From Candidatus Micrarchaeia archaeon (GTDB lineage Archaea > Micrarchaeota > Micrarchaeia > CAILAH01), in assembly GCA_038740245.1 (NCBI GenBank), contig JAVYLZ010000002.1:39399-56145 (forward strand): a stretch of 16,747 bases of DNA, written 5' to 3'. Below, piece by piece: positions 3,001-6,000 of this stretch. Each line of letters begins with the position of its first letter. Position 1 is the first letter of the stretch. The position numbers are program-made.

Positions 3001-6000
3001 ATTATCACAAAATCCGGCTTGATAACGCCGAATCCTTCAATAATTTTCTTGCCCAGCTCATAGTCAAACCCCTGCGCGCACTGGTATGCGAGTGTTGAGT
3101 GGCAATACCTGTCCAAAACTATATGCTCATCTGGGTTTCCCTTGAATTTTTCAAGTATCTTATTGTCCTTCACCATATCCATGAGAAACATGGGGAACAG
3201 CTGCGGGCCTTCAAGCACAAAGCCGGCCCGCCCCTTAAGCACATTGTTGAATATCCCCCCAAAAACGCCTTCCCTGTCTGGGTAATTCTTTCTTGCGCAA
3301 TTAATCTTCTGCCGCAGGAGCTCAATCTGCGTGCCCTTGCCGCACCCGTCAATCCCCTCAAACACGATTATCATGGTATTGTATCTCCTCTAACAATTAA
3401 AAAGAGTGGACCCGCCCAGAGCAGGGGCACTTCGTCCCCTGCAACCCCCGATATTTTCGCTCCGCGAAAATGTAAAATTTGAGTGGACCCGCCCAGATTT
3501 TCAGAGCTTTTTCGCAAGCCTTTTTAGGCATCCCGAAAAAGGCTTATTGAACTGGGGATCTTTCCCGTGTCAGGGGAACGTCTTAACCACTCGACTACGG
3601 GTCCACGGGATAGTTAAATTTAGGAATGCTTATATTGGTTTTGAGGGGGGCCTTCAAAAGTAAATTACCCCCCAAGGGCAACCTTCATGTAATACATCAG
3701 CACAAGGCCCAGCACAATCATGCCGAACTGCATCACGGATATGACGGGCTTTCTTTCCCTGTGCAGCTCGGGCACCAGGTCCACAGCCGCAATGTATATG
3801 AACCCGCCTGCGGCTATCGGCAAAAGCAGGTTGGCCAGCCCGCCCACAGATTCAAGCGCGTAATAAGTAAGCAGTGCCCCGAACACCGCACCCAGCGCGG
3901 ACATGAAGTTGTAAAGCAGTGCTTTCCTCGGGGTAAGCCCGCTGTGGACGAGCACCGCAAAATCACCGAGCTCCTGTGGTATCTCGTGCAGCGCAATCGC
4001 AATCGTGCTTGCAATGCCCAGCGGCACGTTGGCCATAAACGACGCGGAGATTATTGCCCCGTCAACAAAGTTGTGTATCATATCGCCGACGAGGTTAAGG
4101 TATGCAACCGGCTTTACTCTTGCCTTGGCATTGCTGTTCTCATGGCCGTGCATTTCACACCCTTCATCGTGGCAGTGCCGCCAGTGCAGGAACTTCTCTA
4201 TTATGAAAAACGCAAGGAACCCAAGCAGCGCAAGCGCAAACACAAGCATTGGCTCCTCGGTTTCTTCAATGGCTTCCGGAAGCAGGTGGAACATTGCGCC
4301 GCCCAGCATGCCGCCCACTGCAAACGCAACCATATATGCTAGCACGGACGGCCGCAGGCGCTCATTCAGTGCAAGCAGTGCAATCCCGACTAGCGATAAG
4401 ACACTGACTAACAGTGTAGCAAGCACAATCTCAATTATCAATTATACCACCATTACAAATATGACAGCAGCGCAAGTGCCGCATGCACAAGTGCAAGCAA
4501 AATGCCGATGCGCGCGGCCCACACATGCCATTCCAAAGGCATTTTGCGTATTCCTTTTTGGGTAAGCACGGCTATTGCAGCTGTGCAAGCGATTGACACG
4601 ATGGCGAGCACACCAAGCCACATTATGAGGGGCAGCCCGAGCACCTGCGCGTATGATATTTCAGCAAGCATGCGGTCAACCCCCGAATTCACCTACATAA
4701 ATGCCTTTAAGCGCATCGTTTGAGTGCTCATACGAGCGGAAGGAAGAAGTCGCATCTTTGCCGCAGAATGGGATTATGCACTTTGCAACGTTCGGATGCT
4801 TGCCCATTATTGAAGTCACATCGTATACCTTTCCTTCAACAACCACCCAGCAGTCCTGCGCAGTTGAGTGCCTAGCCACCTCTTCAGGGCCAATTTTCAC
4901 GGCTGCTGTTGGCACAGGCAGGCCGCCACCCGCAGTTTGGCCGGCGGTTTCCTGCTGTGCGGGCTGGCCAATACACCCGGACACAAGCATTAGCAGCATA
5001 AACGCAATGGCCGGAACAAATGTTCTCATAAATGGATTATCGCGGCAAAGCTTAAATGCGCACGGTCGCGTATCCTTTCTATAAACAGTGCAGTGCGGGC
5101 ATGCGGCCTATGCCTCTGTGTCCGTGCTTTTCTCAACACGGCGCTGCGATTTGTACATCCCTATTATCTCGTCAACTGTGGTGGCATCCTCCGGCCGCTT
5201 GTCAGTGCGCACATCGCCAACCATGCGCGGGAACCTGAGCGCATATCCAAGCCCCTCTGCATCACGGCCGCACGTGTGCTGCGGTGAGCGCGTAATCTCA
5301 TCGGCCCGCACCGTAATAACATACTTTGGCTCAACCCAGAAGGTGGGCTCCATAAGCGAGCGTACGCGCGCATTCGGCTTTTTTGTCTTTATCTGGGAAA
5401 GTGCCCCCTCAAGCGTTTTCATCTGCTCCTCGGTGAACCCAGAGCCCACTTTTGCAATTGTCTGGAAGTTATCCTCCTGCGGGTCGTACACCGCCCCAAG
5501 CACACCGCCAAACTTAAACTGCGCTCGCGCACCTTTGCCCGCATAATACCCTATTATTACAAGGTCAATGGTATCGCTCAGCTCGCCACGGTATGAGCGC
5601 TTAAGCTTAACCCACGCAAACTTGCGTGCGCCGGCAGTATACGGCGCCGACAGGTCCTTCGCCATCAGGCCCTCAAGCCCGCGCGACACAAAATCCTGAA
5701 AATGCCTTTCAATCTCTTCAGCGGAGCCTGTTATGTATGATTCTGAAGGCATGATCAGCCCATTGCCCTTTATGAGGGCCTCAAGCATTTTTCGGCGCGC
5801 GTGCAGCGGCTCCTGTGTGATATCCTTGCCGTTGATGTAAAGAAGGTCAAATGCAAACAGCCGCAGCGGCATCTCGGCAGCCATCTCATCAACGCCATGC
5901 TTGCGCTTGCGCTGTATGGTCTGCTGGAACGGATAAAATTCGCCCGTTTGCTCGTTATAGGCGAGCGCCTCACCCTCAAATATCACGTCTTCGCACTTAA

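What a model noticed while it worked through the whole genome (the two positions that open the first line are those of the whole stretch)
3404..3604. Second copies of the tRNA 3-prime exon (from nt 59/60) behind seven tRNA genes
Seven tRNA genes are followed, 32-81 nt downstream, by an exact second copy of their own 3-prime end (11-30 nt). In five of the seven the copy starts at nucleotide 59 or 60, exactly where the T-loop introns of this genome are inserted, and runs 1-17 nt past the tRNA end; in several cases the spacer ends in the same two-hairpin module (hairpin - TACCRGGGG - hairpin) that ends several introns. The layout (tRNA, spacer, repeated 3-prime exon) is that of attL/attR sites left by an element that recombines in the T-loop, and suggests that the 59/60 introns arose from such insertions.
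Evidence so far: Direct read of the sequence and script: Val-GAC copy at C2:42802-42818 (17 nt, from nt 60, spacer 60); Asn-GTT C5:2695-2709 (15 nt, nt 59, spacer 58); Ala-GGC C26:591-608 (18 nt, nt 60, spacer 45); Pro-CGG C34:2811-2825 (15 nt, nt 60, spacer 66); Arg-TCT C40:5901-5930 (30 nt, nt 60, spacer 32); Arg-TCG C3:28266-28284 (19 nt, nt 63, spacer 73); Arg-CCT C26:340-350 (11 nt, nt 63, spacer 81). 7 of 40 genes examined; 33 have no such copy within 260 nt. Six of the seven also carry a 59/60 intron. Module copies listed in calls 52, 121, 130. Upstream counterparts: tRNA-His C33 (first 9 nt repeated three times in a 41-nt tandem unit) and tRNA-Leu-TAG C15 (13 nt at -57).
(Added by a program. 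Inside this text positions count along the whole contig: contig position 39,399 is position 1 of the stretch shown here. "Call 12" and the like, gene names such as g00115 and contig names such as C1 are that model's own, and its searches are not shown. The text may have been shortened before it was handed on; [...] marks where a part breaks off. The agent that wrote the report below was given it as the finding of a first reader that could run no searches.)

Follow-up and report, generated by a model that had tools for sequence, protein, structure and literature searches.

The report
Hairpin mini-inserts duplicating archaeal tRNA tails
Behind seven tRNA genes of this tiny archaeon, and behind many tRNA genes of its relatives, sit short gene-less hairpin inserts followed by a spare copy of the tRNA's last 14 or so bases; many carry a mirror-image match to their own target, which hints at an undescribed way of inserting, but they do not look like the source of the T-loop introns.

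Summary
The duplications are real (7 of 38 tRNA genes; chance 0.5% per site) but amount to about five events, since the three Arg loci share sequence. A class-wide pattern search found 70 matches in 46 of 401 genomes (54 with an exact core; reversed pattern 0), all behind genes without a T-loop intron. The intron link fails: 26 of 38 genes have such an intron anyway (p=0.40), spacer ends cannot form the splice helix, and the shared hairpin lies reversed in 59/60 introns. No tyrosine integrase occurs in 9 family genomes; genuine att sites in the class start earlier (nt 52-56). The spacers fall into families: one (Val in this window, Pro) ends in a G-tract hairpin whose base abuts nt 1, 37/38 or 59/60 with a strict orientation rule; another (Asn, Ala, Arg) carries an antisense copy of its own target. 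Best reading: non-autonomous structured mini-elements inserted at the T-loop with target duplication; enzyme unknown. The layout matches E. coli tRNA-linked repeats. The scan noted similar inserts earlier in other DPANN, CPR and bacterial genomes.

The parts
3546..3604 (-). tRNA-Val(GAC) 5' exon, nt 1-59
   Evidence: Rfam tRNA match 3548-3604; cloverleaf fold of 3483-3604, z=-3.8; coordinates checked
3498..3545 (-). 48-nt T-loop intron at 59/60, relaxed bulge-helix-bulge; its end pairs 4 of 4 with nt 54-57
   Evidence: Relatives G001, G002, G006, G007 have an intron at the same place with a different body and a similar 3' end
3484..3497 (-). 3' exon, nt 60-73 (functional copy)
3481..3497 (-). 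first copy of the 17-nt duplication (nt 60-73 plus 3 nt)
   Evidence: the 17-mer occurs exactly twice in the genome
3421..3480 (-). 60-nt gene-less insert ('family G'): A/T-rich start, hairpin 1, G-tract, terminal hairpin
   Evidence: as a whole it folds no better than shuffles (z=-0.38), but both hairpins are in the centroid structure
3453..3471 (-). hairpin 1 of the insert (8-bp stem, 3-nt loop)
3443..3449 (-). G-tract at the 5' foot of the terminal hairpin
3421..3442 (-). terminal hairpin (7-bp stem) whose 3' base is joined directly to nt 60 of the second copy
   Evidence: offset 0
3404..3420 (-). second copy of nt 60-73 plus 3 nt; cannot serve as an alternative 3' exon (0 of 4 splice-helix pairs)
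3399..3403 (-). T5 tract behind the second copy, the first likely terminator (inferred), so the insert probably lies in the pre-tRNA trailer
   Evidence: function inferred
3629..3636 (-). TATA-like box about 26-33 nt before nt 1 (inferred promoter)
   Evidence: function inferred
2787..3374 (-). thymidylate kinase gene, downstream neighbour
   Evidence: PF02223 E=3.4e-27
3665..4441 (-). ZIP metal transporter gene, upstream neighbour
   Evidence: PF02535 E=1e-48

Best explanation
The second copies are target duplications around small (about 30-100 nt), protein-free, folded insertion units that land at the 3' side of the tRNA T-loop. SHOWN: each unit sits between two copies of the tail that usually run from nt 59/60 to nt 73-75; the unit's right end is fixed (the base of its last hairpin, or that hairpin plus four bases, is joined to the first duplicated base) while its left end varies; units come in families shared between unrelated tRNAs and genomes; one family carries an 8-nt antisense copy of its own target (nt 63-70) at the foot of its first hairpin, another an 11-14-nt antisense copy of the T-arm; units can stack in tandem; the same hairpins have invaded existing introns, the -1/+1 position in front of tRNAs, and probably 5S rRNA and the end of RNase P RNA. 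INFERRED: a folded single strand (DNA or RNA) pairs with or is drawn to the folded tRNA gene; its 3' end is joined at 59/60 on one strand, a second, less exact cut or re-annealing 14-19 nt further on yields the duplication on repair; because the first copy of the tail stays whole the tRNA survives; the enzyme is supplied in trans (host protein or visiting element) and is not identified. Introns at 59/60 are mostly older and are swollen and turned over by these modules rather than founded by them.
For: Chance rate and counts. Class-wide census: 70 matches in 46 of 401 genomes, 0 with the reversed pattern; exact starts among the 54 with an exact core: 51:1, 56:3, 57:7, 58:2, 59:8, 60:8, 61:3, 62:1, 63:3, 64:3, 65:5, 66:10. 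Pooled 78 units: 28 start at 59/60, 50 end at 73-75. Orientation rule among 70 hairpin modules found in G000 and family loci: sense-strand hairpin base at |1 in 12, at |38 in 1, at |60 of a copy in 2; antisense at 59| in 10 and at 37| in 4, all within 1 nt; 27 were not assigned by the parser, several of which also abut tRNA positions by eye. Antisense segment: 21 family-T units score 6.62 of 8 against own nt 63-70 versus 5.82+-0.14 for permuted targets (p about 5e-4, 13 different octamers); 29 of 78 units have an antisense run of 8 nt or more to their own mature nt 44-73 versus 13.4+-2.6 permuted. In G139 the antisense run spans the insertion point (nt 50/51-61/63), changes with the target's T-stem, and covers bases the second copy lacks. 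Unit plus tail folds into a closed junction in Asn, Ala, Arg-TCT, L420, L421, L449. One non-tRNA case with the same geometry and a ~50-nt duplication (G007, L252, read by eye). Val intron position shared by five family genomes while the duplication is not; minimal 14-15-nt introns without modules exist in the family.
Against: No mobilising enzyme was found: tyrosine recombinase 0 of 9, Y1 transposase 0 of 9, RT 1 of 9 family genomes (completeness 61-93%); the Cas1 of G000 lies beside a 7-repeat CRISPR array; IS110-type and serine recombinases were not searched. A scan for longer, gene-bearing units with the family-T right end gave 241 matches, 2 with a duplication, none at a recognised tRNA with an ORF. 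The window's own Val unit has no antisense segment (4.5 of 8). A first, cruder antisense test over 61 units was not significant (p=0.14); the reversed-spacer control also exceeds its null slightly (6.46 vs 6.23+-0.10); family T was defined by eye from its right end after the pattern was seen; kin are not independent; at least one of the 78 rows (L488) is a neighbouring tRNA gene, left in. Starts spread over 51-66, and 66 is the detection ceiling of the pattern. Antisense segments could be kept by selection on RNA folding after insertion rather than used for targeting.
Confidence: 0.5

Rival explanations
1. RNA-end chimeras made permanent: pre-tRNA pieces cut by RNase P (nt 1) and the splicing endonuclease (37/38, 59/60) are joined to hairpin-ended RNAs by ligation or by a template-jumping reverse transcriptase, and the cDNA recombines back behind the gene.
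For: The orientation rule fits RNA ends: sense hairpins abut 5' ends (|1, |38, |60), antisense hairpins abut 3' ends (37|, 59|). In Val the junction is at the 3' splice site of an intron that predates the duplication. One fixed end and variable duplication length resemble target-primed reverse transcription (recalled). RNase P RNA is present in 9 of 9 family genomes; DGR-type RTs circulate in the class (19 of 151 genomes with RVT_1; DGR type read from the G007 locus).
Against: Copies start at nt 60 in 8 intronless genes where no splice motif exists. The predicted stop at m1A58 (start at 59) fails: in L420, L428 and L454 the base before the copy is the unit's own A while nt 59 is C or T, although a TrmI-family match exists in 9 of 9 genomes. 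RT in only 1 of 9 family genomes. Positions 37/38 and 59/60 inside genes are also the ones that survive selection.
Confidence: 0.2
2. One reading: eroded attL/attR scars of integrase elements that recombine in the T-loop; the cargo was lost and only folded att-arm DNA is left; 59/60 introns come from such insertions.
For: Integrase-bearing elements of the class do use the T-loop region: Phe att nt 56-76 around a 5.3-kb element (G049), Val att from about nt 52 around 7.2 kb (G138), Thr about 54-82 with two mismatches around 1 kb without integrase (G037). A hairpin like the modules sits just behind the G138 tRNA. The family-T right end looks like a degenerate T-loop (by eye). G004 arrays and two f3 loci duplicate the whole T-arm with an insert at 59/60. 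5 of 54 class spacers end in a 4-pair splice helix, two of them perfect (G139). Archaeal att sites as short as 11-14 bp are known (PMC8371274, passages).
Against: No tyrosine recombinase in 9 of 9 family genomes versus 72 of 151 in the class; no cargo or distant att partner in G000 (one stray 13-mer only); all seven copies lack nt 54-59, which the genuine att sites keep at least in part; each of many different tRNAs has an exact tail copy behind near-identical units; hairpins also abut nt 1 and splice sites. Intron claim: p=0.40, 0-1 of 4 helix pairs in 7 of 7 spacers versus 3-4 in 24 of 26 introns, no tail remnant above chance in any intron.
Confidence: 0.17
3. Replication slippage or unequal recombination at strongly folded tRNA genes makes tandem duplications bounded by hairpins; gene conversion spreads them between paralogues; no element exists.
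For: Perfect tandem arrays of 62-78 nt from nt 59/60 (Arg-TCT; G001 Arg, G005 Thr, G008 Val); tandem repeats inside introns (Gln, Glu, Pro-CGG); clear conversion among Arg paralogues; no enzyme found.
Against: Most spacers occur once and are not copies of the flank; the same unit family stands behind different tRNAs and in different families (Asn of G000 with G187 units); the same upstream module abuts nt 1 of Pro and Ser genes with different first bases; slippage does not predict the start peak or the antisense segments.
Confidence: 0.13

Closest known systems
E. coli tRNA-linked repeats (TLRs; Egan and Landy 1978, Rudd 1999, as described in PMC8144298, Introduction and passages read)
   Same: Unit behind a tRNA or 5S gene whose 3' end repeats the last 18-19 bp of that gene; one to five per locus; no known function or origin given in the text read.
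   Different: Here archaeal, shorter (30-100 nt versus about 150 for rrB), in several families, with a fixed hairpin-base junction, antisense target segments and kin inside introns; sequence homology to TLRs was not tested; transcription not shown.
attL/attR of tRNA-targeting tyrosine integrases (pNOB8-, SSV-, SNJ2-type; PMC8371274 passages; intron-gain model of PMC3293823, abstract and passages)
   Same: Direct repeat of the tRNA 3' end flanking foreign DNA; T-loop and 3' end are known sublocations; genuine examples occur in this class.
   Different: No integrase, no cargo, copies start 3' of the T-loop core used by the class's own att sites, and every kind of tRNA is hit.
Casposon / Cas1 integration (Aciduliprofundum boonei; PMC5137440, abstract and passages)
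   Same: About 15-bp target duplication beside a tRNA T-loop that acts like a leader; arrays could grow in tandem.
   Different: That duplication overlaps the tRNA by only 5 bp and is fixed in length; casposons have TIRs, polymerase and solo Cas1; here no TIRs, variable length, and Cas1 sits beside a CRISPR array.
Prokaryotic MITEs and REP sequences (PMC3184786, passages)
   Same: Small, gene-less, folded, G+C-rich hairpins, flanked by direct repeats, presumably moved in trans.
   Different: No terminal inverted repeats; long, variable duplications; near-exclusive association with structured RNA genes; no Y1 transposase in the family.
Guide-directed insertion sequences (IS200/IS605 guide at the hairpin foot; IS110 bridge RNA) - recalled, not read here
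   Same: A target-complementary segment at the 5' foot of a hairpin, varying with the target.
   Different: Those elements encode their enzyme and make no 14-19-bp duplication; here none is encoded.
BHB introns at 59/60 of ARMAN-2 cleaved by the epsilon2 endonuclease (PMC3239211, passages and section 17); intron transposition in Thermoproteales (cited there, not read)
   Same: The window's intron is of this known kind and position.
   Different: The downstream copies and hairpin units are not mentioned in the parts read.

Membership tests
Tyrosine-integrase attL/attR element | direct repeat of the tRNA 3' end on both sides of the insert | tested here: met
Tyrosine-integrase attL/attR element | integrase gene in or beside the element | tested here: not met
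   none between copies; PF00589 in 0 of 9 family genomes, 72 of 151 in class; genomes 61-93% complete
Tyrosine-integrase attL/attR element | identity block keeps the T-loop overlap, as in the class's own att sites (start nt 52-56) | tested here: not met
   7 of 7 start at nt 60-63 versus 52, 54, 56; only three reference sites
Casposon | solo Cas1 with polymerase, terminal inverted repeats, fixed-length duplication | tested here: not met
   Cas1 beside a 7-repeat array and ORFs that read as Cas2, Cas4 and a type V effector (labels from my reading of the translations); duplications 11 to >=50 nt; Val spacer ends do not pair
MITE | terminal inverted repeats | tested here: not met
   left ends vary and do not pair with right ends
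MITE | target duplication, small size, no gene | tested here: met
E. coli-type tRNA-linked repeat | unit ends in a copy of the upstream tRNA's last ~18-19 bp; may be tandem | tested here: met
   14-19 nt typical; up to four copies
E. coli-type tRNA-linked repeat | sequence homology to E. coli TLRs | not tested
   no comparison run
E. coli-type tRNA-linked repeat | transcribed and processed as RNA | not testable with these tools
   no RNA holder listed
BHB intron (or its precursor) at 59/60 | last bases pair 4 of 4 with nt 54-57 so that the second copy can be the 3' exon | tested here: not met
   0-1 of 4 in 7 of 7 spacers; 3-4 of 4 in 24 of 26 true introns; met in 5 of 54 class spacers
Guide-directed IS (IS200/IS605, IS110) | segment complementary to own target that changes with the target | tested here: met
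   for a subset (family T, G139 and G320-type units); not for the window's Val unit
Guide-directed IS (IS200/IS605, IS110) | cognate transposase or recombinase | tested here: inconclusive
   Y1_Tnp 0 of 9; IS110 and serine recombinases not searched

The most novel reading that the evidence does not exclude
These are a widespread, undescribed class of 30-100-nt non-autonomous elements that pick their site by base pairing between an internal antisense segment and the tRNA T-arm or tail, insert at the T-loop with a 14-19-nt duplication using an enzyme not yet recognised (possibly a host protein), re-programme by changing the antisense segment, and feed the hairpin modules that drive the extreme intron turnover of Micrarchaeia tRNAs; E. 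coli TLRs would be the long-known bacterial fossil of the same process.
Probability: 0.25. Interest if true: 0.88.

Novelty: new variant of a known kind. Interest (0 to 1): 0.62.

Why it matters
The origin of non-canonical tRNA introns is stated as unresolved in the ARMAN paper (PMC3239211, section 17), and E. coli TLRs have had no known function since 1978 (PMC8144298). This locus shows a live, frequent process that writes small folded units into tRNA genes at exact positions without any encoded enzyme in nine genomes. If the antisense segments are guides, this is a minimal programmable insertion system whose enzyme can be hunted, and the unit families give direct substrates for that hunt.

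Tried and rejected
ARAGORN misses the gene and mis-calls the genome; I used my own T-arm parser (a broader version timed out). Alternative splicing to the second copy: rejected. Stop at m1A58 as the cause of the start: looked attractive from the first 136 loci, rejected. Casposase: rejected. Enrichment for introns: rejected. Tail remnants inside introns: best match 5-10 of 14, within the null. A pattern search for T-loops in the family was uninformative. Rfam gave only a sub-threshold Clostridiales-2 match to the G-tract hairpin (E=0.64); no paper on it was found (not in the passages of PMC5737381). The G-tract hairpin also occurs in 82 viral stretches; among 51 non-redundant loci 6 had an RT and 7 a microvirus capsid or Rep gene nearby, and five RT loci show TR/VR-like repeats upstream: too generic to name a source. 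Search for an autonomous partner: nothing. The splicing endonuclease was not found in G000 (81% complete), so its type is assumed from ARMAN-2. No RNA holder listed. No duplication at 5S or RNase P RNA ends in 7 and 9 genomes. Literature searches that did not return a description of this pattern in archaea: (listings only; subscription papers, including Rudd 1999, Williams 2002 and Fujishima 2010, were not seen; no supplements were read, and tRNA tables in them could bear on novelty).
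Full report
What is there. The window holds tRNA-Val(GAC) on the minus strand (3604-3484) between a ZIP transporter and thymidylate kinase. 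It has a 48-nt intron at 59/60 and folds as a cloverleaf with a relaxed bulge-helix-bulge. Behind it lie 3 nt, a 60-nt spacer with two hairpins, and an exact 17-nt copy of nt 60-73 plus 3 nt.

Observation check. Of 38 tRNA genes that I could parse, 7 have an exact tail copy of 11 nt or more within 260 nt; random 14-mers do so in 0.52% of 20,000 trials. The three Arg loci share introns and trailers, so there are about five events. Arg-TCT is a 62-nt tandem unit that runs off the contig and probably continues on C19. The Asn copy starts at nt 60 in DNA. Contigs of other runs hold parts of the spacer, and one from a second study spans both copies co-linearly.

The intron link does not hold as stated. 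26 of 38 genes have a T-loop intron, so 6 of 7 is expected (p=0.40). True introns end in four bases that pair with nt 54-57 (3-4 pairs in 24 of 26); the seven spacers give 0-1, so the second copy is no alternative exon; no intron keeps a remnant of its own tail beyond chance. The Val intron is present at the same place in five family genomes with different bodies, while the exact duplication is only in G000 (a degenerate one in G007). Introns of 14-15 nt without modules exist in the family. So the modules swell and replace older introns.

How wide. Among 136 parsed Val-type loci 11 rows showed a copy, about eight independent after removing repeats and one chance hit in a bacterium. Among family loci, 5 of 45 and 3 of 30 parsed genes had one (one of the latter is a chance 9-mer), and G004 has arrays of three and four copies in which the whole T-arm is repeated with inserts at 59/60. 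One pattern for intronless genes ending in a common acceptor strand found 70 matches in 46 of 401 class genomes and none when reversed; 54 have an exact core. Over 78 pooled units, 28 start at nt 59 or 60, 44 at 57-61, and 50 end at 73-75 (the pattern forces a match over 66-73 in most; one row is a neighbouring tRNA gene).

Unit families. Family G (Val here, Pro-CGG, and the module that replaced the inside of the Arg-TCG/CCT units) ends in a G-tract plus a hairpin. Mapping 70 such hairpins in G000 and family loci gave a strict rule: on the tRNA strand the hairpin base abuts nt 1 (12), nt 38 (1) or nt 60 of a copy (2); on the opposite strand it abuts nt 59 (10) or nt 37 (4); 27 were unassigned and the rest lay far from a landmark. 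Family T (Asn, Ala, Arg-TCT; relatives in G001, G002, G005, G008 and other families) has a T-rich start, an 8-nt antisense copy of the target's nt 63-70, two hairpins and four fixed bases before nt 60; unit and tail fold into a closed junction. The antisense segment matches the own target better than permuted targets (6.62 versus 5.82+-0.14 in 21 units; 29 of 78 with runs of 8 or more versus 13.4+-2.6). A cruder first test was not significant (p=0.14), a reversed control shows a small composition effect, the family was defined by eye, and kin are not independent. In G139 the antisense run covers nt 50-63, crosses the insertion point and tracks the target's T-stem; it cannot pair fully with the second copy, which favours target recognition over later folding.

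Enzymes. Not found: tyrosine recombinase 0 of 9 family genomes against 72 of 151 in the class, Y1 transposase 0 of 9, RT 1 of 9, of DGR type, Cas1 in a CRISPR locus. Where the class does have integrase elements at tRNAs, the repeat starts at nt 52-56 and encloses kilobases (5 of 30 integrase loci had a tRNA within 1.5 kb). No gene-bearing form of family T was found. RNase P RNA and a TrmI-family match are in 9 of 9, but the m1A58-stop idea fails because copies start at nt 60 in eight intronless genes and the preceding A belongs to the unit.

Reading. Best: non-autonomous folded mini-elements inserted at the T-loop with a one-sidedly exact target duplication, target choice helped by structure and, in some families, by base pairing; enzyme in trans (0.5). 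It works like a MITE or casposon in leaving a duplication, and like guide-directed IS elements in carrying a target match (recalled), but fails the membership tests of each. In layout it is an archaeal counterpart of E. coli tRNA-linked repeats (PMC8144298, Introduction and passages).

Papers seen: PMC3239211 (passages, section 17), PMC3293823 (abstract, passages), PMC8144298 (Introduction, passages), PMC8371274, PMC5137440, PMC5737381, PMC8632793, PMC4390854, PMC3184786 (passages only). Rudd 1999, Williams 2002, Fujishima 2010 and Randau and Soll 2008 are known only through citation there. The searches returned no description of these units in archaea. Earlier notes of this scan report the same layout in other DPANN, CPR, Bdellovibrio and Clostridia genomes, two of them with target-matched segments; I had measured the antisense match before seeing those two, though one note had mentioned an inverted copy in passing. 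They are unchecked notes, not independent support.

Verdict. New variant of a known kind; interest 0.62.

Noticed in passing
G000 C22:856-1023 (L410): The 5S rRNA gene is 168 nt versus 115-116 in six relatives: a 52-nt hairpin insert of the same family as the tRNA introns sits in loop C and may be a BHB-type intron.
   Followed up: partly
   Followed up: partly
L366, L371, L401 (G004): Arrays of two to four tail copies in which each later copy has the T-arm 5' strand plus a different insert at 59/60, while the working gene is intronless; CRISPR-like in look; some inserts end almost like a splice site.
   Followed up: partly
G000 C15:5048 and C32:816 (-), tRNA-Thr: The anticodon introns end in a module hairpin that abuts nt 38 with no obvious central helix; how they are spliced is unclear.
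   Followed up: no
G000 C1:5454-5801 (L418): A G-tract hairpin in antisense orientation starts 2-3 nt behind the RNase P RNA; RNase P RNAs of the family carry U-rich hairpin insertions.
   Followed up: no
G000 C1:56341-61360: CRISPR locus with Cas1, ORFs that read as Cas2, Cas4 and a type V effector, and a 7-repeat array (labels other than Cas1 from my reading).
   Followed up: partly
family f1 (G000-G008): No tyrosine recombinase at all, not even a Xer-like one, in nine genomes; the splicing endonuclease family was not found in G000.
   Followed up: no
L252/L255 (G007 C37:25037-25219): Two family-G modules outside any tRNA, the first flanked by a ~50-nt imperfect duplication that starts at the hairpin base.
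   Followed up: partly
L264, L270, L274, L292, L333: The same G-tract hairpin stands just behind the variable repeats of phage DGR-like loci, and in microvirus intergenic DNA.
   Followed up: partly
window 3375-3404 and 3503-3546: A relative (X4) has 130 other letters behind the second copy, and a strain in X1 has a different intron body: the locus varies between strains.
   Followed up: no
window 12959-14449 (+): 496-aa protein with a RelA/SpoT-region domain (PF04607, E=4e-18), unusual for an archaeon.
   Followed up: no
L007 (G002), L016 (G055), G000 C24:5766: tRNA-Val genes with hairpin inserts in the D-loop, of the same U-rich family as T-loop introns.
   Followed up: no
L490: A 211-nt tandem unit in a metagenome contig with the family-T right end and an antisense segment pairing with the repeated tail; host and target not identified.
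   Followed up: no
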